Origin: Crocosphaera subtropica ATCC 51142 | GTDB lineage: Bacteria; Cyanobacteriota; Cyanobacteriia; Cyanobacteriales; Microcystaceae | NCBI RefSeq assembly: GCF_000017845.1 | Contig: NC_010546.1 | Coordinates: 4,680,001-4,712,000, forward strand | Length of the DNA: 32,000 bases | Reading direction: 5' to 3' | Notes under the pieces: generated by a model | What the model saw: only the letters and a program-made list of their open reading frames with translations | Told to the model about the DNA's origin: nothing | Database searches by the model: none | Program-made: the position numbers and the translations under genes | Part shown: positions 11,711-24,735 of the stretch, piece by piece | Layout of the letters: each line of letters starts with the position of its first letter | Numbering within the stretch: position 1 is the stretch's first letter

Positions 11711-12904
11711 ATGGCTGATGAAGTCCTAGTTAAAGTTGACCATGTGTCCAAAAAATTTTGTCGTGATCTCAAACAGTCTCTCTGGTATGGTGTACAGGAT
11801 ATCATGTCAGAAGTAACGGCTCGAAAGTATGAACATGAACTCAGAAAGGGCGAGTTTTGGTCTGTGAATGATATATCTTTTGAGTTACGCCGAGGAGAAT
11901 GTTTAGGACTAATTGGCCCGAATGGAGCCGGCAAAAGTACCCTTTTAAAAATTCTCAATGGGCTAATAAAACCCGATAAAGGCAGAATCGAACTTCGAGG
12001 AAGAATCGGGGCATTAATTGAATTAAGTGCTGGTTTTAATGGAATTCTAACAGGTAGAGAAAATATTTATAGTCGAGGAGCAGTTTTAGGATTTACTAAA
12101 GAAGAAATTGATAAAAAACTGGATGCTATTATTGATTTTTCTGAGTTAGAAGAGTTTATTGATACCCCAGTCGTTAACTATAGTTCCGGAATGAAAGTCC
12201 GTCTAGGGTTTGCCGTTGCTGCTCAAATGGAACCCGATGTTCTTCTCTTAGATGAAGTTTTAGCAGTAGGAGATGTGGGTTTTAGAGCTAAGTGTTTTAA
12301 TAGTATCTATAAGATGATGAAAAATGCTGCGGTTATTTTGGTTTCTCATAGTATGCCCCAAATTAACCGTGTTTGTTCTGACATTTTAGTTATGAATCAT
12401 GGACAGCCCGTCTTTCAAGGAAAAGATGTTCCTAAAGGAATTGATAAATTTTATTCTTATTTTCAGGGAGAAGAAGGAGGAATTATTCTAGGAAATGGTC
12501 AAGCGACAATTCATCATATTTCTTTAAATGGCAACGATAGTAATGATATTGTTGATATTGCTTATGCAGAAAAATTATGGCTTGATTTCCGAATAACAGT
12601 TAATTCAGCAATTTCAAAATTTGATATAATTATTGGATTTCTAAATCAAGAACTGCAGATTATTGCACAATCTTGTTCAAACTATCAAGAAGTAACTTTT
12701 GTGAATAAAAATAAAGCGATGGATATTAAGTTTGAACTTGATAATATTATTTTAAACCCAGGTACTTATTCGTTATTTATTAATATTTTAACTGAAAATA
12801 ATGGAGAAGTTTTATGCAAGCATTATAATATTAGAAAGTTTAATATCGTAGGGCATTTTTATGGTTACGCTCCAGTTCAATTTCAAGGAAATTGGACGTT
12901 TTAG
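11711..12904 (+). CDS. wzt: Polysaccharide-export ABC transporter ATP-binding protein (Wzt/TagH/KpsT type) with a C-terminal extension (Wzt_C-like binding domain)
   Basis: Walker A GPNGAGKST, LTGRENIY, signature YSSGMKVRLGFAVAA and Walker B LLLDEVLAVGD. A non-ATPase C-terminal domain of about 150 aa, rich in beta-strand-like segments, follows. AGGAG lies upstream of the ATG. Confidence 0.88.
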   Translation: MADEVLVKVDHVSKKFCRDLKQSLWYGVQDIMSEVTARKYEHELRKGEFWSVNDISFELRRGECLGLIGPNGAGKSTLLKILNGLIKPDKGRIELRGRIGALIELSAGFNGILTGRENIYSRGAVLGFTKEEIDKKLDAIIDFSELEEFIDTPVVNYSSGMKVRLGFAVAAQMEPDVLLLDEVLAVGDVGFRAKCFNSIYKMMKNAAVILVSHSMPQINRVCSDILVMNHGQPVFQGKDVPKGIDKFYSYFQGEEGGIILGNGQATIHHISLNGNDSNDIVDIAYAEKLWLDFRITVNSAISKFDIIIGFLNQELQIIAQSCSNYQEVTFVNKNKAMDIKFELDNIILNPGTYSLFINILTENNGEVLCKHYNIRKFNIVGHFYGYAPVQFQGNWTF

Positions 12905-13011
12905 ATTTAGACGGTAGTTCTCTACATCAAGAGACTATTACCTTACTCAATATTAAGACTGAAGTGAAATCAATTCTGCTATTGATCCGAAATAAACTAT
13001 TGAGATTAACT

Positions 13012-13785
13012 ATGGCCACCATCTGTCGTGATTACAAACTGCTTTTTATAATGGTTCCTGGAACAGGATGCTCTTCGGTAGGTCAAGTTTTAATAGAAAA
13101 GTTTGGAGGAGAGTTTATTCCTAAAGAACATTTGTATAAAAATAACAAAAAAATTCTTGGTAGAAAACATAACAAACTCAGAGATTTAGTTCAATTTAAT
13201 TTGATAAGTAGGTTTGAAATAGCCATATATCTTAAGTTTGGAACAGTGCGAAATCCTTTTGATTCCTTTGCTACTCAATACGCAAGAAACATCTCGGATA
13301 AATGGATAGAAAAAGAGATGAGTTGGAAAAGTGAAGATATTCTGTTCAACTCTAAGGAACAAAAGCAGTTGTTTGTTGAAAAGCTGAGAGCTAAACTTCA
13401 AGAAAGAAAAGAAAAGTTACTAAATATAGGCTTTGAAACCTGGCTAGAACAAAGAATTTATGCCTATCTTAAAAAAGACACTCTATCTTCTCCCTTATTA
13501 AAACCACTCAAGTCTTTTATTTATTCTGAAAATTATGTTCCTAGTATTTATTCTCCTTTGCTTCGTGGGGTTGATAAAGTGATGAGATTTGAGCATTTAG
13601 AAGAAGACTTTAATAAGATTTTAAAAGAAGGGGGAATTATTCAGCATAATGAATGGGTTATAATTCCTCATACCAATCCTACTAAAGATAAAAAACCATA
13701 CCAAGAATATTACACAAAAAAAGCAAGAAAGTTAGTAGAAAAGAATTTTGCGAGAGAATTAGCAGTATTTGATTATAAGTTTTGA
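13012..13785 (+). CDS. Sulfotransferase (Sulfotransfer_2 / carbohydrate sulfotransferase-like)
   Basis: LLFIMVPGTGCSSVGQVL is a 5'-PSB-like loop at the N-terminus, and VRNPFDSFATQY is a 3'-PB-like motif. I chose ATG 13012. The ORF track start at 12892 overlaps wzt and adds 40 residues with no recognisable motif. Confidence 0.7.
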   Translation: MATICRDYKLLFIMVPGTGCSSVGQVLIEKFGGEFIPKEHLYKNNKKILGRKHNKLRDLVQFNLISRFEIAIYLKFGTVRNPFDSFATQYARNISDKWIEKEMSWKSEDILFNSKEQKQLFVEKLRAKLQERKEKLLNIGFETWLEQRIYAYLKKDTLSSPLLKPLKSFIYSENYVPSIYSPLLRGVDKVMRFEHLEEDFNKILKEGGIIQHNEWVIIPHTNPTKDKKPYQEYYTKKARKLVEKNFARELAVFDYKF

Positions 13786-13850
13786 ACTCTGAAACCTATA
13801 GACTTAAAATTTATATCAATAAAATCAAATGTTAGGGAGCAAAGATACTA

Positions 13851-15794
13851 ATGAAATTTTTAAACAAAAGGTTTGTATCGACTAAACTTATATTAATCGT
13901 TTGTATTATTGTCCTAACTGTTTCAACTATTATTTCTCTGACTCCAGATATCAAAACTAATGGGAAATTTACAAGTCAGTCTTTTCCTACAGCAAACTAT
14001 AATTTATTTGATATTGGCGTTGTTGAGATTAATAACGATGGTGTACTTGATATATTTACAAGCGCTCATAACAGTCCACAAAGTTTACTAATTAGTGATA
14101 GCTCAGGTAGTTATACAAATGAGTTAACTAAAAGGGGACTGGATCAGGATAAGGAATTTCCTGGACTAGAAGAGTCAAATAAAGAACCGACTATCGATCA
14201 ACAGGGAGTTTACATTTATCGTCAAGCACATGAGGGAATGAATACACTTAATATCCGCTCTTCTGAAGTTTCTATTAGTGGAGAAATTAAACTTTATTCA
14301 ACAATAACAATTAAGAAGTCAGATTTAGCTAAAGTTAAAATTGAAGAAAAGAAATTTTCTTCTGGGGCAATTCAAACAATGGTTCAATTCACCTTAGACA
14401 AAAATGGTTTTTTGTCATTTGAGAGTTATCATACCAGTTTATCTCACTCATTTATATTAGATAAAAAATTTCCTTTATCACAAATATTTGTTGGTTCTAA
14501 TCCCGTATCTCCTAATTCCCATGACTTTATTTTGAACTGGAGAGATCGTCATGGCATGGCTTGGGCTGATTATAACGGAGATCAACAAATTGATGTGTTT
14601 ATTGCCCGTGGTGGTTTACAAGGTAAGATGCAAGAACTTTTAGATTTAGAAGTATTCAGAGATGAATTATTAGTTCGTACAGGGTCTAAATTTGAAGATA
14701 AAATAGAAAATTCTAATATACTGAAAAAAGGTTGTGCTGCTTACCATGCTGCATGGATTGACTTTAATAATGATGACCAACTTGATCTTTATATTACTTG
14801 TCCTCGTGGTTTACCAAATCAACTTTACCAGCAAGATACAAATGGTGATTTTATAGATGTTGCTCCTCAACTGGGTTTGGATATAAAAGAAAATAGTTTC
14901 CATACTCCCTTTGTTTGGCTAGATGCCGACAATGATGGAGATATGGATCTATTAATTGAGCAGAATAAAAGTTTATGGCTCTATAGAAATAGTAGTGATG
15001 AATTTCAACCTCAAATGATTACTTCTAACATACCCAGCGTAAGAAAATTTGCCATTGCTGATTATGATTTAGATGGGGATACTGATGTTTTTGCTTTATC
15101 AAAAGTAAAAAATTCTTTATTGGTGAATGATAAAGGCAAATATGTTGCTCATAATCCAAAAAAATTAGGTTTACCTATGCTGGGACATACAGCTAATTGG
15201 GTTGACTATGATAATGATGGCCTTCCAGACTTACATATTATTCCAGACGGATTATACCATCAAGATTCTGATCATACTTTTACAAAAACAGGTTTATTAG
15301 AGTATCGATATCCTTCATCTCTTGCTGATGCTCGCAGTGCTTGGTTTGATATTAACAATGATGGTTATAGAGATGTATTGATAGCAGTACAATATCATCA
15401 ACCTTTTTGGAAAAGAACCTTTCAAAGTATATGGCAAAGTAATATCCCAGAATGGAAACTTGAAAATAAGGAATGGAACGTGACCAAGTATGAAACTGCT
15501 CAGACAAAAAATCATTGGCTGCAAATTGATTTAGTAGGAAAGCCAGGAAATACTCAAGCTATAGGGGGAAAAGTAGTGATTGTAACCTCAGATGGTCAAC
15601 AAATGCAGTCAGTGGGTAGTGCTGAAGGTTCCCATTATTCTCAAGGTCATTATCGTCTTTACTTCGGATTAGGAAAACAGAAAAAAATTGATTCTTTGCA
15701 AGTGATTTGGCCGAATGGACAAATGCAGGAAATAAAAAACGTTTCAGCTGATCAAAGATTAACCATTAAACAAGAAAATAACGGAAAAATTTGA
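13851..15794 (+). CDS. Membrane-anchored FG-GAP/VCBS repeat beta-propeller protein with a C-terminal ASPIC/UnbV domain (CRTAC1 family-like)
   Basis: N-terminal TM helix LILIVCIIVLTVSTIISL. Seven Ca-binding-type repeats: INNDGVLDIF, DYNGDQQIDVF, DFNNDDQLDLY, DADNDGDMDLL, DYDLDGDTDVF, DYDNDGLPDLH and DINNDGYRDVL. The C-terminus HWLQIDLVGKPGNTQAIGGKVVI...GSHYSQGHYRLYFGLG...LQVIWPNGQ is typical of ASPIC/UnbV. GGAG RBS present. Confidence 0.85.
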   Translation: MKFLNKRFVSTKLILIVCIIVLTVSTIISLTPDIKTNGKFTSQSFPTANYNLFDIGVVEINNDGVLDIFTSAHNSPQSLLISDSSGSYTNELTKRGLDQDKEFPGLEESNKEPTIDQQGVYIYRQAHEGMNTLNIRSSEVSISGEIKLYSTITIKKSDLAKVKIEEKKFSSGAIQTMVQFTLDKNGFLSFESYHTSLSHSFILDKKFPLSQIFVGSNPVSPNSHDFILNWRDRHGMAWADYNGDQQIDVFIARGGLQGKMQELLDLEVFRDELLVRTGSKFEDKIENSNILKKGCAAYHAAWIDFNNDDQLDLYITCPRGLPNQLYQQDTNGDFIDVAPQLGLDIKENSFHTPFVWLDADNDGDMDLLIEQNKSLWLYRNSSDEFQPQMITSNIPSVRKFAIADYDLDGDTDVFALSKVKNSLLVNDKGKYVAHNPKKLGLPMLGHTANWVDYDNDGLPDLHIIPDGLYHQDSDHTFTKTGLLEYRYPSSLADARSAWFDINNDGYRDVLIAVQYHQPFWKRTFQSIWQSNIPEWKLENKEWNVTKYETAQTKNHWLQIDLVGKPGNTQAIGGKVVIVTSDGQQMQSVGSAEGSHYSQGHYRLYFGLGKQKKIDSLQVIWPNGQMQEIKNVSADQRLTIKQENNGKI

Positions 15795-15914
15795 GATAAG
15801 TGGTTGGATGAATATTTAATTTGTTAATCAATTACTATGAATAAAAATACTATGATATAATTAACAGGCTATCTTAATAAAGATTTTTGATATTTTTGAT
15901 ATAAAGAATAATTT

Positions 15915-16862
15915 ATGCTAACAAATGAGCCTAATTTAAAAATAAAAGAACCCGCTCAACCCATCTATTTATCAAATCTTCCTTATTGGATTTATAAAAC
16001 AATTATATGGGATCAAAAAAAATACCAGACAAAAAAGCGTAATTGGTCACCTAAACGCTTGTTTGGTTTAATCTCTCCTAATCTCAAAGAACCCATTTTT
16101 ATTGTGGGTTCTGGTCGTTCGGGGACAACCTTTTTAGGGTCTTGCATTGGAGAAATTCCAGAAATTTCTTATCATTTTGAACCCGATATCATCAAAGCAA
16201 CCGCTAGATATGTTTACACAGGAGAATGGAGCCAAAAAAAAGCACAATGGTATTATCGCAATATCTATAGTTTATTAATGCGAATTCATGGGGATGGTGA
16301 TTTACGTCTCGCTGATAAAACCCCCCGTAATAGCTTCATTATTCCTTTTCTCTACGAAACCTTTCCTGACGCTAAATTTGTTCATATTATTCGAGATGGT
16401 CGAGATGTCGCCCTTTCTCTCTCAAAACAACCCTGGTATCGAGGAGATCAAGTTAATTCAGGAATTATAGAACGGGGAGGATATCCTTACGGTCCTTATG
16501 CTCGTTTTTGGGTAGAACCAGACAGAGTAAACGAATTTGAAACCACTAGCGATATTCATCGTTGTATTTGGTTATGGCGAAGATATCTAGAAACTATTTT
16601 AGAGGCTAAGGCTCAATTACCAGAGAATCAATATTACGAATTACGGTATGAAACCTTAGTCACTCATCCCAAAGAAGAAGCCAAACGTCTGCTAGATTTT
16701 TTAGAGATCACCTCAACTCTATCTCGTCGTCTCTTTCATCAGGCGACTGCCAAAGCAAAACCTGATTCTGTGGGACTAGGGAAAAAACAACTTTCAAAGG
16801 CTCAACTTCAAGAAATTGAGCAAGAAGCAGGGAATATGCTTGACCGCTTAGGGTATGATTAA
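15915..16862 (+). CDS. Sulfotransferase (Sulfotransfer_1/3-type PAPS-binding motifs)
   Basis: IFIVGSGRSGTTFLGS is the 5'-PSB P-loop-like motif and VHIIRDGRDVALSLS is the 3'-PB motif. Length is 315 aa. Confidence 0.85.
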   Translation: MLTNEPNLKIKEPAQPIYLSNLPYWIYKTIIWDQKKYQTKKRNWSPKRLFGLISPNLKEPIFIVGSGRSGTTFLGSCIGEIPEISYHFEPDIIKATARYVYTGEWSQKKAQWYYRNIYSLLMRIHGDGDLRLADKTPRNSFIIPFLYETFPDAKFVHIIRDGRDVALSLSKQPWYRGDQVNSGIIERGGYPYGPYARFWVEPDRVNEFETTSDIHRCIWLWRRYLETILEAKAQLPENQYYELRYETLVTHPKEEAKRLLDFLEITSTLSRRLFHQATAKAKPDSVGLGKKQLSKAQLQEIEQEAGNMLDRLGYD

Positions 16863-16938
16863 GTAAAGTTTGTAAATATTGGTTTAATTGACTTTACACC
16901 TTTAGTTTATTAATCGTCTCCTCTCCTAAGAAACATTT

Positions 16939-17784
16939 ATGTCTGAAATATATCAAGAAAGAGATTGGGAAGTTATCGATTACCAAATCTATCATTTTCA
17001 AGAAGCCGACGTATTTTTTCGCGGGCCGCAACCTGAATTTCTTAAGCCCTACAATTATGCAATTTGTATAGGAGCCGCACAAACCTTTGGTTGTTATTGT
17101 GAAAAGCCCTTTCCTTATTTACTCCAAGAAAAATTAAACATTCCAATTTTAAACTGGGGAAGAGGTGGAGCTGGCCCTTATTTCTTCCTAAAAAGAGCAA
17201 AACTTCTCGATTATATTAATGAAGCAAAATTTGTCATCATACAAGTTATGTCAGGTCGCTCTCAAGGCAATTCCTTGTATCAAAGTGAAGGCATAGGAAG
17301 CTATACCAGAGCTTCGGATGGAATCAGAATTTCTTGTAAAAAAGCTTATCAAGAACTTTTAGAAAGGTATGATGAAACTTATGTCAAAAAAATTGTTGCT
17401 GAAACTCGTGTAAATTGGGTCAAAACTTACCAAGAATTTTTGAGTAAAATCACTATTCCTAAAATTCTATTTTGGTTTTCTTCTCGTTATTCTAATTATG
17501 AAGAAAGATATAAAAACACATCTAGTTTGTTTGGTAAATATCCTCAATTGATCAATCAAAAAATGGTTGAGCAGATCAAGCAATTTAGTGACGATTATAT
17601 AGAATGTATCTATCCTACAAATTCACCTAAATTACTAATTAATCGATTTACAGGAAAGCCAGCTAATATAGAAGATGAAAAAGGCAAAAAAACAATAACT
17701 CATGATTACTATTATCCAACACCAGAGTCCCATATAATGGCAGCCAATGTTCTAGAAAAAGTTTGTTGGAAATATTTGAATTAA
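16939..17784 (+). CDS. Conserved hypothetical protein of unknown function (possibly DUF6473-like; recalled, not verified)
   Basis: A 281-aa ORF in operon context with coding-like composition. The N-terminal pattern FRGP..(x)..YAICIGAAQTFGCYCEKPFPYLL...NWGRGGAGPYFF...IIQVMSGRSQGNSLY has no catalytic motif I can name. Confidence 0.55.
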   Translation: MSEIYQERDWEVIDYQIYHFQEADVFFRGPQPEFLKPYNYAICIGAAQTFGCYCEKPFPYLLQEKLNIPILNWGRGGAGPYFFLKRAKLLDYINEAKFVIIQVMSGRSQGNSLYQSEGIGSYTRASDGIRISCKKAYQELLERYDETYVKKIVAETRVNWVKTYQEFLSKITIPKILFWFSSRYSNYEERYKNTSSLFGKYPQLINQKMVEQIKQFSDDYIECIYPTNSPKLLINRFTGKPANIEDEKGKKTITHDYYYPTPESHIMAANVLEKVCWKYLN

Positions 17785-17826
17785 AATTATTTATTAAATT
17801 TTTAACTTTATCACTCACTTTTTATT

Positions 17827-18975
17827 ATGAACAATTATCAATCCAGATCTAATTATCATCATCCCTTGTGGTTAAGACTTAGTCCTAATCAAATGCTGAA
17901 AATTGCTAAATCAATTTTATCAAAAACCTTACCGTCCCATCTTAAAAAGAAATATTATCAGTGGCAAGCAAAAAATAAGCCTAAACCCCCTTTAGTTAAA
18001 GAAAGATTATTAGAAAACTATACCTATGATTTTGAGCGATTTTATAAATTTTCAACAGCTAAAAAAGGGTCTAATTTATCCTCAAATTTATTCCCAAAAT
18101 ACTCCCATTTGACTCAAACTAATCTAAAAGCTCTCATTACTAAAGATTATCACCGTATTGAAAAGGGTTTAGCCCTTAAAGAACCCAGAATAGGATTTGG
18201 GAAAAATACAGTCAACAATCTTATGGCGGCCATAGAACAATATCAAACCCTTTATGGATCTGATGAATTAGTTCAAATTTCAATTAATACGCTTTTAGCT
18301 TATTATCAATTTAATTATCAGCAAGGTCACGATAATAAACAACTATATGAACAAATCAACTCTGTAAAAGATAAGATAATCGAGGATCAAAAAATATCAG
18401 AAGGTGGAACTAAAACAATTACTAAAAAAGACATTTGGAAAAATGCTAAACAGGATCTAAAAAACTTTTTTGCCACTAGACACAGTATTAGACATTTTTC
18501 TAATGAAGAAGTTGACTTAAGTTTAATTAAACAAGCTGTAGAAATGGCGCAAAAAACTCCCTCTGTCTGTAACCGTCAAACCAGTCAAGTTTATGTATTT
18601 AGTGAGTTTCAGGATAAACAGAAAGTTCTCAGTTTTCAAAATGGCAATCGAGGATTTGGGGAACAAGCTAGCAAAGTTTTAATTGTTACTTCCAATCTAC
18701 AAAATTTTACCTCCGTGGGAGAAAGAAACCAATGTTGGATTGATGGGGGAATGTATGCCATGTCCCTCGTTTATGCCCTACATTCCCTGGGTTTAGGAAC
18801 CTGTTGCTTAAACTGGAGCGTTGAACATACCGTCGATCAACAACTTCGAGAAGCTGTAGGAATTAATGATTCACAAGCTGTCATCATGATGATTGCTGTG
18901 GGACATCTTCCTGATGAATTAAAGGTTGCTCAGTCTCCTCGAAAAAAAATTGAAGAAGTTTTAATTATCAAATAA
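17827..18975 (+). CDS. Nitroreductase-family flavoprotein with an N-terminal extension of about 200 aa
   Basis: The C-terminal 180 aa read RHSIRHFSNEEVDLSLIKQAVEMAQKTPSVCNRQ...GGMYAMSLVYALHSLGLGTC...IAVGH, the nitroreductase fold pattern. I do not recognise the N-terminal half. Confidence 0.78.
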   Translation: MNNYQSRSNYHHPLWLRLSPNQMLKIAKSILSKTLPSHLKKKYYQWQAKNKPKPPLVKERLLENYTYDFERFYKFSTAKKGSNLSSNLFPKYSHLTQTNLKALITKDYHRIEKGLALKEPRIGFGKNTVNNLMAAIEQYQTLYGSDELVQISINTLLAYYQFNYQQGHDNKQLYEQINSVKDKIIEDQKISEGGTKTITKKDIWKNAKQDLKNFFATRHSIRHFSNEEVDLSLIKQAVEMAQKTPSVCNRQTSQVYVFSEFQDKQKVLSFQNGNRGFGEQASKVLIVTSNLQNFTSVGERNQCWIDGGMYAMSLVYALHSLGLGTCCLNWSVEHTVDQQLREAVGINDSQAVIMMIAVGHLPDELKVAQSPRKKIEEVLIIK

Positions 18976-19018
18976 TACTGTAAGATATTTGTAACTTAAA
19001 TATAGGAGGCATAGAGAT

Positions 19019-20260
19019 TTGAAAGTCGTAATCACTGGCATAACAGGAATGCGGAACCGAGGAGTGGAAGCCATTGTTATTCCAACTATTGAGGGGTTGC
19101 GTACATATAATCCTAGTATTGATATTAATCTACTCACTAGAAGTCCAGATTATGATGAAATCCGTCTCCAACCTTATGAAGTTAACCTTCATCTCGAAAG
19201 TAAAAATCTAACAACAAAAACCCCATCAATAAGCCGTAAAAAACGGTTACTTTCTCAAGTTTTTCCCCTCTATAAATTACCCAAACCTCAACCAATACCT
19301 ACCTCTCGTATCATTCGTAAAGCTTCTGCTATTATTGCCTCTGGGGGTGATATTTTTAGTCCTGAATATCCCATCACGCCTCATCTAAAACCCCTCAAAC
19401 TCGCTTTGGATTTAGGAAAGTCGATCATATTTTTAGCTCAATCTATCAGTCCCTACAGAACTGATGAAGAAGCTGAATCATGGCTTGAAGTTGCTCGACA
19501 AGCTAAACTAATCACGGTACGGGAATTGGCAACCTATAAATATGTCACAGAAATCCTGGGACTGTCGACTGATTTGGTAAAATTAACGGCTGATCCGGCT
19601 TTTTTGCTGAAACCTTCCCCAGACACAACCATTAATAACCTTTTAGAAAGTTATGGTATTCCTAAACACCGTCCTCTTGTTGCTATTGCTACGAGTCAAG
19701 GGATTTGTAGTTATGCTTCGATTTGGGATCAACGTAAACACTTAACTGCTTGGCAAAAAGTCGTTACAACAATTCTAGAAGACCTAGATGCAGACGTGAT
19801 GATTATTCCCCATGTTCAAGAAGTTAGAGCAGGTAATGATGACCGACTTATTGCCACATCATTACTTCGCGCCTTAGACTATAATCCACGGGTTCATGTC
19901 GCAGGTGCAGATCATAGTGCCTCAGAATTTAAAGGACTAATTGGGAGATGTGAGTTAGTAATTGCTGAGCGAATGCACGCTGCGATCGCGGGTTTATCGA
20001 GTGGAGTTTGTACGTTAGCAGTTGGTTATTCTATTAAAGCACAAGGCATTATGGCTGATTTGGTAGGAGAAGATAATCTACAAGGGGGATTATTAATTAG
20101 CATCGATGACTTTCTAAATCCAGATTTGGCTTCTCAAGCTGTACACAATGCTTGGAAACAAAGGGATGAAATTAAGACCAAAATTCAAGATAAGTTACCC
20201 TATATTCAGAAAAAGGCTTTAAGTAATTTTGAGATTATTTTTAATACTCTTAAACACTAA
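19019..20260 (+). CDS. Polysaccharide pyruvyl transferase (CsaB/WcaK-like)
   Basis: GNRGVEAI near the N-terminus, GGDIFS, and ERMHAAIAGLSSGVCTLAVGYSIKAQG near the C-terminus, matching the PS_pyruv_trans pattern. TTG start with AGGAGG 8 nt upstream. Confidence 0.82.
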   Translation: MKVVITGITGMRNRGVEAIVIPTIEGLRTYNPSIDINLLTRSPDYDEIRLQPYEVNLHLESKNLTTKTPSISRKKRLLSQVFPLYKLPKPQPIPTSRIIRKASAIIASGGDIFSPEYPITPHLKPLKLALDLGKSIIFLAQSISPYRTDEEAESWLEVARQAKLITVRELATYKYVTEILGLSTDLVKLTADPAFLLKPSPDTTINNLLESYGIPKHRPLVAIATSQGICSYASIWDQRKHLTAWQKVVTTILEDLDADVMIIPHVQEVRAGNDDRLIATSLLRALDYNPRVHVAGADHSASEFKGLIGRCELVIAERMHAAIAGLSSGVCTLAVGYSIKAQGIMADLVGEDNLQGGLLISIDDFLNPDLASQAVHNAWKQRDEIKTKIQDKLPYIQKKALSNFEIIFNTLKH

Positions 20261-20306
20261 TAACTAAGTGAATCGAAAGCTTTATAAAATTTGAGATTTG
20301 GGAAGA

Positions 20307-21122
20307 ATGAATTATCAATTACAGAAACCTAATTTAGAACAAACTGTTATCTTTCTCCATATTCATAAAACAGGTGGAAGAACATTGGAGGATATACTTA
20401 AGAAGCAATATGACCCACAAAAAATTTTATCAACAGATAATTTGAAATGGAGACAATCTCACGAAACTTTAAGTCAATACAGTCCAGCAGAATTAGAAAA
20501 CATTAAACTAATTAAAGGACATATGTATTTTGGAATTCATAACATATTATTACAACCTTTTACTTATATTACTATTTTAAGAGATCCCATCGAAAGAGTT
20601 CTTTCGCTCTATTGCTATATTCGAGATGAACCCAAAAATCCGCAGCACAAAGAATTAATAGAAAAAGGGATGAATTTAGAACAATTTCTATGCAGTGGTA
20701 TTGCAAAAACAGCCGAAAACGGTCAGACAAGAATTTTATCAGGCATTCAAGCAGAAAATAAACCTTGTTCTGATGAAATGTTTAAGTTAGCGAAGGAAAA
20801 TTTATCTAAATATTTTTCGGTTGTTGGTCTGACAGAACAATTTGATGAAACTTTAATTCTATTAAAACGTCTATTAGGATACAATATACCCATTTATTCT
20901 ACAAAAAACAAAAACAAAAGGCGTTTATCTATTGATGACATATCAGCAAAGGAAAGAAAAATGATAGAACAATATAATAGTTTTGATCTTCAATTATATG
21001 AATACGCTTATCAGCTTTTTGAAGAACAAAAGAAACAACAAGGATACTTATTTAATCTGGAATATACTTATTTTAAATCAAAATCGTTAGTTAAAAAATA
21101 TTTTATCAATTCAGGTAAATAA
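20307..21122 (+). CDS. Sulfotransferase family 2 (HS6ST/CHST-like motifs)
   Basis: VIFLHIHKTGGRTLEDIL is the 5'-PSB motif and ILRDPIERVLSLYCYI is the 3'-PB motif. I prefer ATG 20307 to the TTG at 20298 used by the ORF track. Confidence 0.8.
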   Translation: MNYQLQKPNLEQTVIFLHIHKTGGRTLEDILKKQYDPQKILSTDNLKWRQSHETLSQYSPAELENIKLIKGHMYFGIHNILLQPFTYITILRDPIERVLSLYCYIRDEPKNPQHKELIEKGMNLEQFLCSGIAKTAENGQTRILSGIQAENKPCSDEMFKLAKENLSKYFSVVGLTEQFDETLILLKRLLGYNIPIYSTKNKNKRRLSIDDISAKERKMIEQYNSFDLQLYEYAYQLFEEQKKQQGYLFNLEYTYFKSKSLVKKYFINSGK

Positions 21123-21190
21123 TAGCATTTTAAGTGAATTTTAAACCAGACTCTTTTTCCATAAATTAAATTTTATTAAAAAGACAACAC

Positions 21191-22276
21191 ATGAACCACA
21201 AAATTCTCTGGCTAAGACGGCGTTTTGATTGGATGGGTAAGCATAGTGGTTATGACCAACTATGCGAATCTATGTCTACACTTCTTCCTCACGATACTTA
21301 TAAAAGTGTATGGCAACATCCAGGACAACCCCAAAAAAAAATTTTGCGTTCAATGGTAGAACGAGTGGGAAAAAAAGCCAAAGGTAGTCCTATGTATGCT
21401 CTTGATAGTACCACAGCAGAAATTAAGACTATCCTAAAAAGTTTACAATGGCATCCTGATTTAATTCATGTCACTTATGTGGAAAATCAATTAGGAATAT
21501 TACCAAACTGGAAAGAGCGTTTATCTTGTAAAATAATTGGCACATCCCATCAACCTGCAGGATGGTGGCGTTTGGTTCATAAACATCCTAAGAAAATTGC
21601 TAATTTAGATGCACTAATTGTTCTTGGGAGTCGAGAAGTTTCTTACTTTGAACAGTATCTACCTGGACGAGTTTTTTTTATTCCTCACGGAGTTGATACT
21701 GATTTTTTCTGTCCTCCATTGGAAAAAGAAAAGAGACAAGTAAGGTGTGTTTTTTCAGGAAAACATCTTCGAGATTTATCCACTTTAGCAATAGTAATTG
21801 ATCAAGTTCTTAGTAAAAATCCAGAAATTCAATTTGACATCATCATGCCTCGAAATCCTGGGGATCGTACAAATCCGACTCTTATTCGTATTGCTCGCCA
21901 TTCACAGGTTCACTGGTATCAAGGTGTTTCAGATAACCGCTTAAGGAAACTCTATCAACAAGCAAATATGTTAGTTTTACCAATTATCGACTGTACTGCT
22001 AATAATGCTTTATTGGAGTCTATATCCTGCGGTTTGCCGGTAATTTCTAATGATGTAGGGGGTTTACTTGACTATACAAGAGATACCTTTGCTGAACTTT
22101 TACCTATTGGTGATGTGGATGGATTTGTTAATGCTATATTGAAACTGACACAGGATTCAGAGGAACAGCAAACAAGAAGTCAAGCTGCGAGGAAATTTGC
22201 CGAGGAAGAGCTTGATTGGATTAAAATAACTAAAAAAACTATTGAGATTTATCAAAAAATCTTAACTAATAATTAA
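21191..22276 (+). CDS. Glycosyltransferase, GT4-like (GT-B fold)
   Basis: C-terminal Glycos_transf_1-type region: VFSGKHLRDL..., NNALLESISCGLPVISNDVGGLLDY. Confidence 0.78.
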   Translation: MNHKILWLRRRFDWMGKHSGYDQLCESMSTLLPHDTYKSVWQHPGQPQKKILRSMVERVGKKAKGSPMYALDSTTAEIKTILKSLQWHPDLIHVTYVENQLGILPNWKERLSCKIIGTSHQPAGWWRLVHKHPKKIANLDALIVLGSREVSYFEQYLPGRVFFIPHGVDTDFFCPPLEKEKRQVRCVFSGKHLRDLSTLAIVIDQVLSKNPEIQFDIIMPRNPGDRTNPTLIRIARHSQVHWYQGVSDNRLRKLYQQANMLVLPIIDCTANNALLESISCGLPVISNDVGGLLDYTRDTFAELLPIGDVDGFVNAILKLTQDSEEQQTRSQAARKFAEEELDWIKITKKTIEIYQKILTNN

Positions 22277-22320
22277 GGATAATAAAACTTTAAAAATTTC
22301 AGATTTCAAAGGATTAAGTA

Positions 22321-23523
22321 ATGATATTTTTCGTATCAAAAACCCTCACTCATAACAGTGGATTGCCCCAAGCAGGAAAAGATATATTAATTGCTTTGTT
22401 AACCACTGGCGAGCCGATAATAGTTGTTACTAAAACAAAATGTTTACTTCCTCAAAAAATTGAGAATCAACTTGTTCCTTTACCTCAGTGGGTATTCCCA
22501 ATTGAAAAAATTGCTTCTGCCAAATCAATTCAAAGAAAGCGACAACTTTTAAGTTTTCTAATCCAATGGATTCAAAAAAAAATTTTAGAAATAATTAAAA
22601 ATCAAAGAGATAAACAATTAAAAGCTTACAATCCTCATAGGATTGTAGTTAATGGATTAAGCAACCATACATTTTGGCAAAATATTAGTCCCGAAGTGAC
22701 GGAACAAATGGTCTTAATCGTTCATGTTTCCCCTAGACATTTCGTTCCACCAAAGTCTGAGACGTTAGACTGGGCAATCAAAATAATGAATCAATATAAA
22801 GCTTTGATATTTGTTTCATCTCGATGCCGAGACGAATGGTCATCATTAATTGATGTTAGTAATAAAAGAATTTCTTATATTCCTAATTGCTGCAAAGAAG
22901 ATGAAATTAAGAAAATAACCTCAGTTACCAAAGAAAAAACCAAAGAAAAATTAAGTTTATCTCTAAAAGATTTTGTAGCGGTTTGTGTCGCAAGTTTGCA
23001 ACCTCGGAAGAATCAAACGTTGTTATTAGATGTTTTTCCAAAATTAATACAAATTGTTCCAAATTTAAAACTTTATTTGATTGGTCCAATCAGTTTAAAT
23101 CCTTCCTGGGCAAAATCTCTGTTAAAAACAATTAAAGTTAAGGGTTTCAGTAATCAAATACAATATTTGGGGAGTAAAGAGAATGCAAAAGAGTTTATTT
23201 ATGCTGCCGATGTTTTATTATTACCTTCTTTGGCAGAAGCAATGCCATGTGTCATATTAGAAGCAATGGCTTTAAAAACACCAATAATTGCTTCTGAAGT
23301 TGATGGTATTCCAGAGTTAATTGAGAATGAATCAACAGGCTTTTTGTTTTCTCCAAAAGATCCGCAAACTTTAGTTGAAGCTTTCAAAAAGATGGCTAAT
23401 AATTTAGAGGAAACTCAAAAATATACAGATAATGCTTATCATAAGTATTGGCAAGAGTTTTCGCAGAGTAAGCAAATAGAAAGATATCATCGATTTTTGG
23501 CAAACTTGAATAATGGTAACTAA
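22321..23523 (+). CDS. Glycosyltransferase, GT4-like (GT-B fold)
   Basis: SLQPRKNQ..., LLLPSLAEAMPCVILEAMALKTPIIASEVDGIPELIENESTGFLF is the classic EX7E region. AAGGA RBS present. Confidence 0.85.
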   Translation: MIFFVSKTLTHNSGLPQAGKDILIALLTTGEPIIVVTKTKCLLPQKIENQLVPLPQWVFPIEKIASAKSIQRKRQLLSFLIQWIQKKILEIIKNQRDKQLKAYNPHRIVVNGLSNHTFWQNISPEVTEQMVLIVHVSPRHFVPPKSETLDWAIKIMNQYKALIFVSSRCRDEWSSLIDVSNKRISYIPNCCKEDEIKKITSVTKEKTKEKLSLSLKDFVAVCVASLQPRKNQTLLLDVFPKLIQIVPNLKLYLIGPISLNPSWAKSLLKTIKVKGFSNQIQYLGSKENAKEFIYAADVLLLPSLAEAMPCVILEAMALKTPIIASEVDGIPELIENESTGFLFSPKDPQTLVEAFKKMANNLEETQKYTDNAYHKYWQEFSQSKQIERYHRFLANLNNGN

Positions 23524-23580
23524 AACATTAATGTGTTATAGTTTAATCAATATCATAGTATAAAATGAAGTTTAAAAAAA

Positions 23581-24588
23581 ATGACTAAACCAACTGTTTT
23601 TGTTCATACAAGCTGCCATGAAATAATGTCAGGAAAGATTGCTGCTTACAGTCTTAAACGGATGTCTAAAAATACTGATAAGTTTGATGTTAAAATCATT
23701 GAATTAGAACATTATCCCCATTTAATGAAGTATCATGGTTACCGATGTATTCGTAATAAACGGGAAGCCGCTTGGTATAATAATGTTCCTCAATCTTTCT
23801 TGCCATTGCGCTTTATTGTCCCTCAATTGATGGGTTATGAAGGAAAAGCCGTTGTCATAGACCCTGATATTTTTGCAGTGGCAGATATCTATGAATTACT
23901 AACAAAAGACATGGGAAATAAAGCTGTTTTAGCTAGACCCATTTATTCAAAAAATAGAGTTATTGGTCATAATTCTAGTGTCATGCTTCTTGACTGTTCT
24001 AAATTACAACATTGGCAATGGGAAAAAGAAATTGATGAAGTTTTTAATAAAAAAAGAGATTTACAAGAATGGATATCTATACAAACAGAGTCAAGAGAAA
24101 ATATAGGGGAACTAGAAGAAGAATGGAATCATTATGACATTCTCAATGAACACACTAAGTTGTTACATAATACAACTCAAATTACACAACCTTGGAAAAC
24201 AGGTTTGCTTTATGATACATCCCGTTTAAATAATAATGTACAAGGATTTGCTCGTTTTGGAATTGAGTTAGTTTCTAGTTATCAAAAAATAGCTAAAGCT
24301 CCTTCCAAAAGGAAAGCATTGAAATCTATGATGCAGGAACTTTTATTACAAAAGGAAAGAAAATTATATCGTCAACATCCTGACCCAAATCAAGAAAATC
24401 TTTTCTTTTCATATCTGAAAGAAGCGTTATTAGAAGGAATTATTAGTGAAGACTTTATTAAACAACAAATCAATTACAAACATATTAGAAAAGATATTTT
24501 TGAAATTTTAAACAAGGTCAACTATTCTACTGAAAATGTATTACAAAGAATCACTAAAAAAACAGCTAAACTACACTTACAAAAATAA
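23581..24588 (+). CDS. Hypothetical protein, possibly a GT-A-fold (GT8-like) nucleotide-sugar transferase
   Basis: A 335-aa ORF, last gene of the same-strand cluster. KAVVIDPDIFAVADIYEL resembles a DxD motif context and SSVMLLDCSKL resembles GT8-like cores. Assignment is weak. Confidence 0.45.
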   Translation: MTKPTVFVHTSCHEIMSGKIAAYSLKRMSKNTDKFDVKIIELEHYPHLMKYHGYRCIRNKREAAWYNNVPQSFLPLRFIVPQLMGYEGKAVVIDPDIFAVADIYELLTKDMGNKAVLARPIYSKNRVIGHNSSVMLLDCSKLQHWQWEKEIDEVFNKKRDLQEWISIQTESRENIGELEEEWNHYDILNEHTKLLHNTTQITQPWKTGLLYDTSRLNNNVQGFARFGIELVSSYQKIAKAPSKRKALKSMMQELLLQKERKLYRQHPDPNQENLFFSYLKEALLEGIISEDFIKQQINYKHIRKDIFEILNKVNYSTENVLQRITKKTAKLHLQK

Positions 24589-24735
24589 ATACTATAAATT
24601 GTAAGTAATATAATTTCAATCTCCTGAACTTGATGGGTATATAGTCATCCATAATCTCTTTCCTTATCCCTGATCATAAAATATATAGACTCAGGAAAAC
24701 TATCACCAATTATTTTCTTAGTAAAGGTTTTCTGT

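What the first reader, a model, noticed from the sequence alone, without database searches (positions are those of the whole stretch)
11711..24588. ABC-transporter-type locus predicted to make a multiply sulfated, pyruvylated polysaccharide
Eleven same-strand, closely spaced genes combine several functions.
- A Wzt-type ABC ATPase.
- Three sulfotransferases carrying two different PAPS-binding motif styles: LLFIMVPGTGCSS/VRNPFDSF, IVGSGRSGTTFLG/IIRDGRDVALS and FLHIHKTGGRT/LRDPIERVLSLY.
- A polysaccharide pyruvyl transferase and two GT4 enzymes.
- A possible GT-A enzyme, a nitroreductase-family protein, an FG-GAP/ASPIC protein and an unknown.

Three distinct sulfotransferases in one locus imply several sulfation positions. 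Adding ketal-pyruvate would make a highly anionic polymer.

The genetically defined cyanobacterial sulfated EPS system I know of (Synechocystis xss/synechan) is of the Wzx/Wzy type. Here the only export component visible is of the ABC (Wzt) type. No Wzx, Wzy, Wza, Wzc or initiating phosphoglycosyl transferase is in the window. That architecture would be a different, uncharacterised route to a sulfated EPS.
Basis: partly seen in the sequence, partly recalled or inferred. Interest (0 to 1): 0.72.

Follow-up and report, generated by a model that had tools for sequence, protein, structure and literature searches.

The report
Wzt-linked sulfation and pyruvylation glycan cassette
This stretch of the marine cyanobacterium Crocosphaera subtropica ATCC 51142 is a strain-variable gene cassette, attached to a sugar-chain exporter gene, that most likely adds sulfate and pyruvate to a cell-surface polysaccharide; it is real and untested, but it is an incomplete pathway of a kind already predicted in the literature.

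Summary
Eleven same-strand genes at 11711-24588 (inferred cce_4549-4559) encode:
- a Wzt ATPase with a C-terminal carbohydrate-binding domain;
- three unrelated PAPS-type sulfotransferases;
- a pyruvyl transferase;
- two GT4 enzymes and a GT8-like enzyme;
- a nitroreductase-fusion protein, a membrane-anchored FG-GAP/ASPIC protein and a DUF6473 protein.

The locus is not self-contained. A candidate wzm is a solitary gene elsewhere in the genome, and the window holds no initiating or polymerising enzyme.

Comparison with nine relatives shows a hypervariable cassette. It starts inside wzt at codon ~255 and ends at nfi. Wzt ATPase domains are 84-97% identical across strains. Their C-terminal domains fall into serotype-like groups (32-47% identity between groups) that track cassette content. 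Cassettes carry small-group transferases: sulfotransferases in 7 of 10 genomes, methyltransferases in 4, pyruvyl transferases in 4. Glycosyltransferases occur in only 3.

The best model is a modification or capping cassette for a glycan exported by Wzm/Wzt, like capped O-antigen systems.

ABC-type sulfotransferase clusters were already noted in cyanobacteria (Maeda 2021). A KpsMT-type sulfated capsule cluster that also carries a pyruvyltransferase gene is described in Cobetia.

Verdict: new variant of a known kind, moderate interest.

The parts
11711..12904 (+). wzt (inferred cce_4549). ABC ATPase domain at about aa 1-255 (11711-12475). C-terminal Wzt_C carbohydrate-binding domain at aa 256-397 (12476-12904).
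   Evidence: Pfam ABC_tran plus Wzt_C. Best PDB sequence match is the A. aeolicus O-antigen Wzt, E 2.7e-58. AlphaFold model has pLDDT 87, and the top Foldseek hits are full-length WzmWzt chains 8dne and 7k2t. 100% identical to ACB53897.
12476..24860 (+). Hypervariable cassette. It runs from the middle of wzt (start of the carbohydrate-binding domain) to just before nfi. GC is 32.8%, against 37.7% in the left flank.
   Evidence: blastn homology to CCY0110, PCC 8801 and A. sacrum ends at 12475-12477, and to BG0011 at 12526. With BG0011 and A. sacrum it resumes only at 24864/24912. GC values.
12892..13785 (+). Sulfotransferase 1 (Sulfotransfer_2). The real start is probably the ATG at 13012.
   Evidence: Pfam 40.5 bits against a cut-off of 22. 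RefSeq lists a 257-aa form. Absent from the otherwise syntenic Crocosphaera MAG.
13851..15794 (+). FG-GAP/ASPIC protein with an N-terminal membrane anchor. It is the only predicted extracytoplasmic product of the cassette.
   Evidence: Pfam FG-GAP_3 and UnbV_ASPIC. Hydrophobic segment at the N-terminus. It is the first gene after wzt in PCC 8801, BG0011 and two MAGs.
15915..16862 (+). Sulfotransferase 2 (Sulfotransfer_3/_1, TPST-like).
   Evidence: Pfam 101 bits. PDB tyrosylprotein sulfotransferase, E 1e-8. Orthologues in the MAG and CCY0110.
16939..17784 (+). DUF6473 protein, function unknown.
   Evidence: Pfam DUF6473, 106 bits. Single-sequence AlphaFold model unusable, pLDDT 44. No paper in the library mentions the family.
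17827..18975 (+). Nitroreductase-family flavoprotein with an uncharacterised 200-aa N-terminal domain. Conserved partner of the pyruvyl transferase.
   Evidence: Pfam Nitroreductase at aa 216-380. The N-domain has no Pfam hit. It is adjacent to the pyruvyl transferase in the MAG, CCY0110, L020 and a distant Wzx-type cluster, L024.
19019..20260 (+). Polysaccharide pyruvyl transferase.
   Evidence: Pfam PS_pyruv_trans, 128 bits. NCBIfam CsaB and WcaK matches lie below the equivalog cut-offs. Relatives follow Wzm-Wzt directly in L021 and L027.
20298..21122 (+). Sulfotransferase 3 (Gal-3-O-sulfotransferase / Sulfotransfer_2 type), cce_4556.
   Evidence: Pfam. PDB heparan sulfate 6-O- and 2-O-sulfotransferases, E 2e-6. 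Locus tag.
21191..22276 (+). GT4 glycosyltransferase a.
   Evidence: Pfam Glycos_transf_1 and Glyco_trans_1_4. 51% identical homologue near Wzm-Wzt-PyrT in L021.
22321..23523 (+). GT4 glycosyltransferase b.
   Evidence: Pfam Glycos_transf_1, 118 bits.
23581..24588 (+). GT8-like (GT-A) glycosyltransferase candidate.
   Evidence: Family of 752 representative clusters. 14 of 32 homologues hit PF01501. Profile hits PDB 5gvv, a GT8. Invariant DxD.
24663..24836 (+). Remnant of a PhyH-family dioxygenase gene. This is the last cassette gene in relatives.
   Evidence: tblastn: 43% identity to BG0011 PhyH aa 23-80, E 1e-10.
24907..25047 (+). 5' fragment of nfi (endonuclease V). It is the conserved right border of the cassette, cut here by a mobile element.
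   Evidence: tblastn: 64% identity to BG0011 Nfi aa 16-62. nfi follows the cassette in PCC 8801, BG0011, A. sacrum and two MAGs.

Best explanation
This is a strain-variable modification cassette fused to the substrate-reading end of an ABC glycan exporter.

**Proposed mechanism (inferred).**
- A glycan is built on a lipid carrier at the cytoplasmic face of the membrane. The enzymes that build it are largely encoded elsewhere.
- The cassette's soluble enzymes act on it there, where PAPS and PEP are available. There are three different PAPS-type sulfotransferases. There is also a PEP-dependent pyruvyl transferase that works with a flavoprotein partner.
- Two GT4 enzymes and a GT8-like enzyme add a few residues, as a cap or as side branches.
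- The finished chain is exported by Wzt together with an unlinked candidate Wzm.
- The Wzt C-terminal carbohydrate-binding domain is exchanged together with the cassette. It most likely recognises the cassette-specified anionic epitope as the export signal, as in capped O-antigen systems.

**Shown:** domain identities, cassette boundaries, co-variation of the C-terminal domain with cassette content, and a solitary wzm candidate elsewhere in the genome.

**Inferred:** the substrate, the sulfated and pyruvylated product, recognition by the binding domain, and the final destination (LPS O-antigen or capsule-like polymer).
For: **Domain assignments.** All are above curated cut-offs.

**Wzt identity.**
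- It matches the CBM-bearing O-antigen Wzt of A. aeolicus in sequence and in predicted fold over its full length.
- KpsT matches the ATPase domain only.

**Cassette boundaries.**
- DNA homology to four relatives breaks at codon ~255-272 of wzt.
- In the two relatives that match on the right side (BG0011 and A. sacrum), it resumes at nfi.

**Domain divergence.**
- ATPase domains are 84-97% identical among 16 orthologues.
- C-terminal domains form groups with 52-85% identity within a group and 32-47% between groups.

**Group membership matches cassette content in every case examined.**
- Group A: ST3, DUF6473, NTR, PyrT, ST2, GT4, GT4.
- Group B: FG-GAP, sulfotransferases and/or methyltransferases, PhyH.
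- Group C: sulfotransferase first, no FG-GAP.
- Two look-ups made as predictions fitted.

**Core transporter conservation.** The candidate Wzm is 93% identical and the ATPase domain 95-96% identical to CCY0110. The C-terminal domain is only 39% identical.

**Cassette content across 10 genomes.**
- Small-group transferases dominate: sulfotransferases in 7, methyltransferases in 4, pyruvyl transferases in 4.
- Glycosyltransferases occur in only 3.

**Relic of an exchange.** XPORK-15E keeps a split, relic wzt with its own Wzt_C upstream of the intact gene.

**Recurrent linkage elsewhere.**
- PyrT relatives directly follow Wzm-Wzt(Wzt_C) in two unrelated lineages.
- One of these has GT4, ST3 and GT4 next.

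**Cellular location.** All enzymes lack hydrophobic anchors. Only the FG-GAP protein has one.

**Literature.**
- Wzt CBMs bind terminal caps, and only capped chains are exported (PMC11231755).
- A pyruvyl transferase caps an ABC-pathway O-antigen (PMC10629545).
Against: - No Wzm, initiating transferase or polymerase is in the window, so the substrate is unknown.
- The Wzm-Wzt pairing is inferred from one best hit.
- No terminator with an evident coiled-coil ruler was seen. This was not formally tested.
- The C-terminal domain lies next to the cassette. Their co-variation could be simple linkage rather than function.
- A. sacrum has a Wzt_C domain but an empty cassette.
- UHCC 0190 and XPORK-15E show no sulfotransferase in what was read.
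- In K. pneumoniae O1 the terminal pyruvate is not required for export.
- In Synechocystis, wzm and wzt mutants changed EPS but not O-antigen. The destination in cyanobacteria is therefore unsettled.
Confidence: 0.6

Rival explanations
1. The eleven genes are the essentially complete biosynthetic locus for a released, multiply sulfated and pyruvylated exopolysaccharide. The polymer leaves the cell by an ABC route that replaces the Wzx/Wzy route of synechan.
For: - Three glycosyltransferases, three sulfotransferases and a pyruvyl transferase lie in one apparent operon with wzt.
- In Synechocystis, wzm and wzt mutants alter EPS rather than O-antigen.
- Related Crocosphaera and Aphanothece strains make sulfated EPS (cited).
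Against: - No Wzm, initiating transferase, polymerase, PCP or OPX gene is in the window.
- Three transferases are few for a heteropolymer backbone.
- The equivalent cassettes of BG0011, PCC 8801 and MAG2 have no glycosyltransferase between wzt and nfi. That of A. sacrum (the sacran producer) is empty.
- Released EPS are generally ascribed to the Wzx/Wzy or synthase routes, not the ABC route (Maeda 2021).
Confidence: 0.15
2. The cassette decorates a glycan, but the Wzt C-terminal domain does not read that decoration. It is exchanged with the cassette only because it lies next to it and the conserved ATPase domain offers the nearest homology for recombination.
For: - The variable region begins exactly where strong sequence conservation ends.
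- A. sacrum keeps a Wzt_C domain without any cassette genes.
- The K. pneumoniae O1/O2 transporter exports chains with or without terminal pyruvate.
Against: - Divergence between the C-terminal domain groups is deep (32-47% identity) beside ATPase domains that are 84-97% identical. This is the pattern of serotype-specific Wzt CBMs described in the literature.
- All four measured left breakpoints fall inside wzt at codons ~255-272. None falls in the wzt-to-next-gene spacer.
Confidence: 0.15
3. The target is not a polysaccharide chain. It is a glycolipid, a secreted glycoprotein (for example the neighbouring PEP-CTERM-type protein) or a small natural product that is sulfated and exported.
For: - Sulfotransferase 2 is closest to protein-tyrosine sulfotransferases among solved structures.
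- A PEP-CTERM/DUF4114 protein is encoded just upstream in three strains.
- Wzm/Wzt systems also serve S-layer protein glycans.
Against: - Wzt_C, PS_pyruv_trans, GT4 and GT8-like enzymes, and a carbohydrate-type sulfotransferase 3 all point to glycan substrates.
- The PEP-CTERM gene belongs to the conserved flank and is absent next to wzt in PCC 8801, the MAGs and A. sacrum.
- No natural-product enzymes (PKS, NRPS) are in the window.
Confidence: 0.07

Closest known systems
Capped O-antigen systems exported by Wzm/Wzt with a carbohydrate-binding module (E. coli O8/O9a, K. pneumoniae O3/O5/O12/O4; structures of A. aeolicus WzmWzt)
   Same: - Two-domain Wzt (ATPase plus C-terminal beta-rich domain).
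- Conserved ATPase domain with type-specific C-terminal domains.
- Small-group transferases (methyl in the prototypes) encoded beside the transporter.
- Cytoplasmic completion of the chain before export.
   Different: - The candidate wzm is unlinked.
- No polymerase or coiled-coil terminator is evident.
- The modifying enzymes are sulfotransferases and a pyruvyl transferase rather than methyltransferase/kinase or Kdo transferase.
- The destination is not known to be LPS.
Synechocystis PCC 6803 xss cluster (synechan)
   Same: A cyanobacterial cluster that combines glycosyltransferases with two or more sulfotransferases of different subfamilies. The predicted product is a sulfated extracellular glycan.
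   Different: - xss is of the Wzx/Wzy type and nearly complete: priming transferase, 8 glycosyltransferases, polymerase, PCP and regulators.
- This cassette has Wzt only, no priming enzyme, and adds pyruvylation.
- No Synechocystis record appeared among the listed plasmid hits for sulfotransferases 2 and 3.
ABC-type sulfotransferase-containing clusters predicted in cyanobacteria by Maeda et al. 2021 (for example for the Arthrospira sulfated capsule)
   Same: It is the same class of prediction: partial clusters with an ABC transporter gene plus sulfotransferases. This strain was counted with 14 sulfotransferase genes.
   Different: - That paper gives no analysis of this locus in the text read here.
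- It does not describe the wzt-to-nfi cassette structure or the co-variation of the binding domain.
Cobetia marina KMM 1449 sulfated capsule gene cluster
   Same: A marine bacterium with a chemically solved sulfated polysaccharide carrying minor pyruvate. Its gene cluster has ABC transporter, sulfotransferase and pyruvyltransferase genes.
   Different: - Group III capsule type (kpsETMD, kpsSC, Kdo-lipid primer), about 70 genes, with PAPS synthesis genes included.
- None of these features is present here.
- The exporter here is Wzt with Wzt_C, not KpsT.
K. pneumoniae O1 WbbZ terminal pyruvyl transferase
   Same: A PS_pyruv_trans-type enzyme that caps a glycan made by the ABC pathway. It is encoded at a separate, mobile locus from the backbone genes.
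   Different: - That transporter lacks a binding module and exports unpyruvylated chains too.
- There is no sulfation and no flavoprotein partner.
Synechocystis slr0977/slr0982 (Wzm/Wzt) with methyltransferase slr1610
   Same: A cyanobacterial Wzm/Wzt system with a small-group transferase. Mutants change the cell-surface polysaccharide.
   Different: - There, wzm and wzt lie in one cluster.
- The modification is methylation.
- Orthology to the Wzt studied here was not tested.

Membership tests
Wzm/Wzt ABC-transporter-dependent glycan export, CBM-bearing ('capped glycan') type | Wzt nucleotide-binding domain of the O-antigen/teichoic-acid exporter clade | tested here: met
   Pfam ABC_tran. Best PDB matches are A. 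aeolicus Wzt (E 2.7e-58), then TagH/TarH and mycobacterial Wzt. Foldseek agrees.
Wzm/Wzt ABC-transporter-dependent glycan export, CBM-bearing ('capped glycan') type | C-terminal carbohydrate-binding domain on Wzt | tested here: met
   Wzt_C at 38.6 bits against a cut-off of 30.4. The model shows an all-beta domain at aa 258-380. It aligns over its full length to CBM-bearing Wzt 7k2t and 8dne.
Wzm/Wzt ABC-transporter-dependent glycan export, CBM-bearing ('capped glycan') type | Wzm permease partner | tested here: inconclusive
   None is in the window. A 294-aa Wzm homologue exists as a solitary gene elsewhere in the same genome. That it pairs with this Wzt is inferred.
Wzm/Wzt ABC-transporter-dependent glycan export, CBM-bearing ('capped glycan') type | Chain-terminating enzyme with a coiled-coil molecular ruler | not tested
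   No long coiled coil is obvious in the translations. No coiled-coil predictor was run.
Wzm/Wzt ABC-transporter-dependent glycan export, CBM-bearing ('capped glycan') type | The CBM binds the non-reducing terminal cap, and export depends on it | not testable with these tools
   Only indirect evidence: the C-terminal domain groups follow cassette content.
Wzm/Wzt ABC-transporter-dependent glycan export, CBM-bearing ('capped glycan') type | Initiating phosphoglycosyl transferase and polymerising glycosyltransferases in the locus | tested here: not met
   Only two GT4 enzymes and one GT8-like enzyme are present. No WecA/WbaP-type or WecG-type enzyme is in the window.
Wzx/Wzy-type sulfated EPS cluster (xss/synechan) | Wzx flippase, Wzy polymerase, PCP/OPX proteins and a priming glycosyltransferase | tested here: not met
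   No such Pfam family was found on any scanned ORF of the window.
Wzx/Wzy-type sulfated EPS cluster (xss/synechan) | Sulfotransferases of different subfamilies within the glycan cluster | tested here: met
   Sulfotransfer_2, Sulfotransfer_3/_1 and Gal-3-O_sulfotr/Sulfotransfer_2 are present. They do not cross-match each other.
Group 2/3 capsule system (KpsMT-KpsED, KpsSC) | KpsT without a CBM, KpsE/KpsD, and KpsS/KpsC Kdo-linker enzymes | tested here: not met
   Wzt_C is present. No Poly_export, Wzz/GNVR or Capsule_synth families were found. KpsT structures match only the ATPase domain and rank far lower.
PAPS-dependent sulfotransferases | Sulfotransferase fold with 5'-phosphosulfate and 3'-phosphate binding motifs | tested here: met
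   All three are above the Pfam cut-offs. Motifs are visible in the translations: PGTGCSS / RNPFDSF; GSGRSGTT / RDGRDVALS; HKTGGRT / RDPIERVLS. Catalytic activity and acceptor were not tested.
Polysaccharide pyruvyl transferases (PS_pyruv_trans; CsaB/WcaK/WbbZ kind) | PS_pyruv_trans domain over the full length | tested here: met
   127.9 bits against a cut-off of 25.3, covering aa 17-338. It is below the NCBIfam equivalog cut-offs for CsaB and WcaK, so it is not an orthologue of either.
Glycosyltransferase family 8 (for the protein at 23581-24588) | GT8 domain with a DxD motif | tested here: inconclusive
   The protein itself has no Pfam hit. 14 of 32 homologues hit PF01501. The profile hits GT8 structure 5gvv at E 2.9e-4 over the DxD region. 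D94 and D96 are invariant.

The most novel reading that the evidence does not exclude
The Wzt carbohydrate-binding domain of Crocosphaera and its relatives reads a sulfated and/or pyruvylated chain end. That would make sulfate a new kind of chain-terminating cap that licenses ABC export. Exchange of a 'binding domain plus cap-enzyme' cassette between the conserved wzt ATPase domain and nfi would then generate serotype-like surface diversity in these ocean nitrogen fixers. A side possibility concerns the conserved pairing of the pyruvyl transferase with a flavoprotein (nitroreductase-type here, FrhB/FdhB-type in UHCC 0190). That pair might make a reduced pyruvate derivative, such as a carboxyethyl (lactyl) ether, rather than a ketal.
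Probability: 0.3. Interest if true: 0.7.

Novelty: new variant of a known kind. Interest (0 to 1): 0.45.

Why it matters
Sulfated polysaccharides of cyanobacteria are of ecological and industrial interest. They affect metal binding, aggregation, grazing and phage resistance, and they are candidate biomaterials. Only the Wzx/Wzy-type synechan pathway has been defined genetically.

This locus lies in a well-studied model strain. It offers a compact set of three different sulfotransferases and a pyruvyl transferase tied to an ABC exporter. The comparative data turn it into a testable hypothesis: the exporter's binding domain and the modifying enzymes are swapped as one unit, giving strain-specific anionic surface glycans.

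If confirmed, it would extend the 'cap and export' quality-control principle of O-antigen assembly to sulfate and pyruvate chemistry. It would also explain a recombination hot spot in Crocosphaera genomes.

If not confirmed, it remains an ordinary, incomplete, variable surface-polysaccharide island.

Tried and rejected
**Searches and computations that led nowhere**
- Homologue search with the Wzt C-terminal domain alone returned one fragment, because the word filter found only 27 candidates.
- Metagenome scan with the same domain found nothing.
- The single genome-contig scan used a nitroreductase alignment. The tool picked patterns in the variable N-terminus and recovered only the already known MAG.
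- The single-sequence AlphaFold model of DUF6473 had pLDDT 44, so no fold search was made.
- Permissive Pfam scans of DUF6473 and of the nitroreductase N-domain gave nothing further.
- The promoter and terminator scan found fewer promoter-like sites than shuffles and no more terminator-like sites than expected. It says nothing about operon structure.
- tblastn of sulfotransferases 2 and 3 against plasmids was meant to measure similarity to the xss enzymes on pSYSM. No Synechocystis record appeared in the listed hits. I did not confirm that pSYSM is in that collection.
- Literature searches for cce_4549-4557 and for DUF6473 found no paper.
- Mann, Kimber and Whitfield 2019 (census of chain-termination chemistries) and the 2020 O-antigen review are not held. 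I could not check whether sulfotransferase terminators were already predicted there.

**Readings considered and rejected**
- A KpsMT-type capsule locus: rejected because Wzt_C is present and KpsE, KpsD, KpsC and KpsS are absent.
- A degraded wzm upstream of wzt: rejected because the 540-nt spacer holds a DUF751 gene on the other strand and no Wzm similarity.

Full report
**What is there**

The window comes from Crocosphaera subtropica (formerly Cyanothece sp.) ATCC 51142. The Wzt protein is 100% identical to ACB53897, and eight cluster proteins have exact database entries from that genome. One of them carries the tag cce_4556. Consecutive accession numbers imply that the cluster is cce_4549 to cce_4559.

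Eleven + strand ORFs lie between 11711 and 24588, separated by 37-120 nt. All Pfam assignments exceed the curated cut-offs:
- Wzt (ABC_tran plus Wzt_C).
- Sulfotransferase 1 (Sulfotransfer_2).
- An FG-GAP/ASPIC protein.
- Sulfotransferase 2 (Sulfotransfer_3/_1).
- A DUF6473 protein.
- A nitroreductase domain fused to an unassigned 200-residue N-terminal domain.
- A PS_pyruv_trans protein.
- Sulfotransferase 3 (Gal-3-O-sulfotransferase / Sulfotransfer_2).
- Two GT4 enzymes.

Further points on the gene products:
- The last gene has no direct family hit. It belongs to a family of 752 representative clusters. In that family, 14 of 32 members hit GT8, the profile matches a solved GT8 structure, and a DxD motif is invariant.
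- The three sulfotransferases are not detectably similar to one another.
- Among solved structures, sulfotransferase 2 is nearest to tyrosylprotein sulfotransferases. Sulfotransferase 3 is nearest to heparan sulfate 6-O- and 2-O-sulfotransferases. Sulfotransferase 1 has no match.
- Only the FG-GAP protein has a membrane anchor. The enzymes look cytoplasmic.

**What is missing**

No Wzm, Wzx, Wzy, PCP, OPX or initiating transferase is in the window. The 540-nt spacer upstream of wzt holds a DUF751 gene on the opposite strand, and no Wzm remnant is detectable.

A Wzm does exist in the genome:
- I took the permease found directly upstream of a Wzt orthologue in a Microcystaceae MAG as the query.
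- This recovered a 294-aa 'putative polysialic acid transport protein' of ATCC 51142.
- That gene is solitary, lying between a Na/Ca exchanger gene and gltX.

Scattered EPS genes are described as normal for cyanobacteria (PMC4594306). That this Wzm is the partner of this Wzt is an inference.

**The comparative picture**

I read the neighbourhoods of nine Wzt orthologues. In all of them wzt heads a same-strand block. None has wzm beside it. In five, the block is followed by nfi (endonuclease V).

Block contents differ sharply:

| Genome | Genes between wzt and the right border |
|---|---|
| Crocosphaera MAG (L010/L017) | The window's set minus sulfotransferase 1, with PhyH in place of the GT8-like gene |
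| CCY0110 | Two Sulfotransfer_3 genes, a split nitroreductase, a pyruvyl transferase, then the contig ends |
| BG0011 | FG-GAP, two sulfotransferases, methyltransferase, PhyH |
| PCC 8801 | FG-GAP, one sulfotransferase, two methyltransferases, PhyH |
| Second MAG (MAG2) | FG-GAP, three sulfotransferases, PhyH |
| P01_G01 bin | Sulfotransferase, unknown, sulfotransferase, then the contig ends |
| UHCC 0190 | Methyltransferase, FrhB/FdhB-like flavoprotein, pyruvyl transferase, two GT4, PhyH |
| XPORK-15E | Two methyltransferases and more; a split relic wzt lies upstream |
| Aphanothece sacrum | Nothing: wzt is followed directly by nfi |

Evidence on the cassette borders:
- At DNA level, homology between the window and four of these genomes stops at 12475-12526, that is at codons ~255-272 of wzt. 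In the two that match on the right side (BG0011 and A. sacrum), it resumes only at 24864/24912, the start of nfi.
- The window also holds a 58-codon PhyH remnant at 24663-24836.
- The cassette has 32.8% GC, against 37.7% in the left flank.

**Co-variation of the Wzt C-terminal domain**

- The ATPase domains of 16 orthologues are 84-97% identical.
- The C-terminal domains fall into groups with 52-85% identity within a group and 32-47% between groups.
- Group A is ATCC 51142, the first MAG and one short ENA contig. It goes with the sulfotransferase / DUF6473 / nitroreductase / pyruvyl transferase / GT4 cassette.
- Group B goes with the FG-GAP / sulfotransferase-or-methyltransferase / PhyH cassette.
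- Group C goes with cassettes that start with a sulfotransferase and lack FG-GAP.
- I made two look-ups after defining the groups, as predictions. Both fitted.
- Between ATCC 51142 and CCY0110, the candidate Wzm is 93% identical and the ATPase domain 95-96% identical. The C-terminal domain is only 39% identical.

This is the pattern reported for serotype-specific Wzt proteins. There, a carbohydrate-binding module reads a terminal cap, and only capped chains are exported (PMC11231755).

The Wzt studied here matches the CBM-bearing A. aeolicus O-antigen Wzt over its full length, in both sequence and predicted fold. KpsT matches only the ATPase domain.

**Independent support for the ABC link**

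A metagenome scan with the pyruvyl transferase found eight loci:
- A 47% GC contig (L021) has a GT4 51% identical to the window's first GT4, a WecG/TagA-type transferase, then Wzm, Wzt(Wzt_C) and the pyruvyl transferase in a row.
- A 62% GC contig (L027, identical to L022) has Wzm, Wzt(Wzt_C), pyruvyl transferase, GT4, Sulfotransfer_3, GT4, an epimerase and a sulfatase.
- A third contig (L024) has the nitroreductase-fusion protein (48% identity, N-terminal domain included). It is translationally coupled to a pyruvyl transferase, but beside a Wzx-type flippase.

Three conclusions follow:
- The combination of an exporter with a binding domain, a pyruvyl transferase, a sulfotransferase and GT4 enzymes recurs outside cyanobacteria.
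- The flavoprotein-pyruvyl transferase pair is a conserved module whatever the export route.
- In UHCC 0190 a different flavoprotein occupies the same position.

**Most likely mechanism**

The cassette modifies a lipid-linked glycan whose backbone genes lie elsewhere.
- Modification takes place in the cytoplasm, where PAPS and PEP are available.
- It adds sulfate at up to three kinds of position, pyruvate (possibly further processed by the flavoprotein) and a few sugars.
- Wzt and the unlinked candidate Wzm then export the chain.
- The swapped C-terminal domain probably recognises the cassette-specified epitope.

Steps that are shown: domain identities, cassette borders, co-variation, and a solitary wzm candidate elsewhere in the genome.

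Steps that are inferred: the substrate, the product chemistry, recognition by the binding domain, and the destination.

The destination is open:
- A Wzm/Wzt model has been proposed for the O-antigen of Synechococcus elongatus (review PMC4390846).
- In Synechocystis, wzm and wzt mutants changed EPS and not O-antigen (PMC3769361).

The main caveat is that co-variation of adjacent sequences can be mere linkage.

**Comparison with what is known**

- The idea of ABC-type, sulfotransferase-containing, partial clusters in cyanobacteria is already stated by Maeda et al. 2021. They also list 14 sulfotransferase genes for this strain.
- A sulfated capsule carrying minor pyruvate in Cobetia marina has been tied to a KpsMT-type ABC cluster with sulfotransferase and pyruvyltransferase genes. 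Sulfated, pyruvylated O-polysaccharides are known from Cobetia (PMC11766843).
- A sulfotransferase-domain gene sits right after wzt in the Aeromonas salmonicida O-antigen cluster, with no sulfate seen in the bulk structure (PMC4483657).
- A pyruvyl transferase caps the K. pneumoniae O1 antigen of the ABC pathway (PMC10629545).
- No paper in the library mentions these cce genes.

The locus is therefore an uncharacterised variant of known kinds. The added value lies in the cassette structure and the exchange of the binding domain.

**Verdict**

- Observation: confirmed.
- Interpretation: partly supported.
- Novelty: new variant of a known kind.
- Interest: 0.45.

Noticed in passing
window 25047-29470 (and on to at least 30288): Three tandem, overlapping tyrosine-recombinase genes (25152-26234, 26209-27687, 27650-29470) are followed by a DUF6262 gene. 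They resemble a 'recombinase in trio' element, a name I recall from memory. The insertion cuts nfi after about codon 45. The rest of nfi is not in the window.
   Followed up: partly
window 30291-31595: A complete DnaB-type helicase gene (434 aa) lies directly after the DUF6262 gene. It is unclear whether it belongs to the inserted element or is the host's replicative helicase.
   Followed up: no
window 24663-24836: A remnant of a PhyH-family dioxygenase gene (43% identity to BG0011 PhyH aa 23-80). PhyH is the last cassette gene before nfi in BG0011, PCC 8801 and two MAGs. It is also the last cassette gene in UHCC 0190, where nfi is missing.
   Followed up: yes
window 24736-24765: A perfect 12-bp-stem hairpin (CTGCATTGGGTT-TAACAT-AACCCAATGCAG) lies about 150 nt after the last cassette gene and inside the PhyH remnant. 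It could be a terminator or a small repeat element.
   Followed up: no
window 12892-13012: The start of sulfotransferase 1 is ambiguous. The longest ORF starts at a TTG that overlaps the end of wzt by 13 nt. RefSeq uses the ATG at 13012 (257 aa). This gene is the only one absent from the otherwise syntenic Crocosphaera MAG.
   Followed up: partly
window 10321-11169: A PEP-CTERM-like secreted protein with a weak DUF4114 match. It is conserved in the same place upstream of wzt in CCY0110 and BG0011, but not in PCC 8801, A. sacrum or the MAGs.
   Followed up: partly
L008 7856-9782, L010 7871-9785, L012 7905-9855, L028 7861-9787, L029 6261-8184; L019 6037-7278 (unassigned protein only): In genomes where wzt is not next to recO, two genes lie divergently upstream of it. 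One is a CTP_transf_3 cytidylyltransferase (CMP-Kdo/CMP-sialic-acid synthetase family). The other is a 411-415 aa unassigned protein with faint GT-B-like matches. In L019 only the unassigned protein was called. This hints that an ulosonic acid is part of the exported glycan.
   Followed up: partly
L006 13339-14589: In C. chwakensis CCY0110 the nitroreductase-fusion gene is split into two ORFs (N-domain and nitroreductase domain). This is either a pseudogene, a draft-sequence error or a natural split.
   Followed up: no
L029 8389-9582: Crocosphaera sp. XPORK-15E carries a fragmented second wzt (a 116-aa ABC_tran piece and a 237-aa Wzt_C piece) just upstream of the intact wzt. It looks like a relic of a cassette exchange.
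   Followed up: no
L028 12280-15042; L024 4114-6521; window 17827-20260: The pyruvyl transferase is always preceded by a flavoprotein. This is a nitroreductase-fusion protein here and in a distant Wzx-type cluster, and an FrhB/FdhB-like protein in UHCC 0190. The pattern suggests a redox step coupled to pyruvylation.
   Followed up: partly
window 3894-6211: A PatA-type response regulator (DUF4388 plus receiver domain), a CheY-like gene and a CheW gene lie in a row. This is a taxis-type signalling cluster unrelated to the finding.
   Followed up: no
plasmid hits H13-H24: Sulfotransferase 3 is 34-39% identical to sulfotransferase family 2 proteins encoded on many Priestia megaterium plasmids.
   Followed up: no
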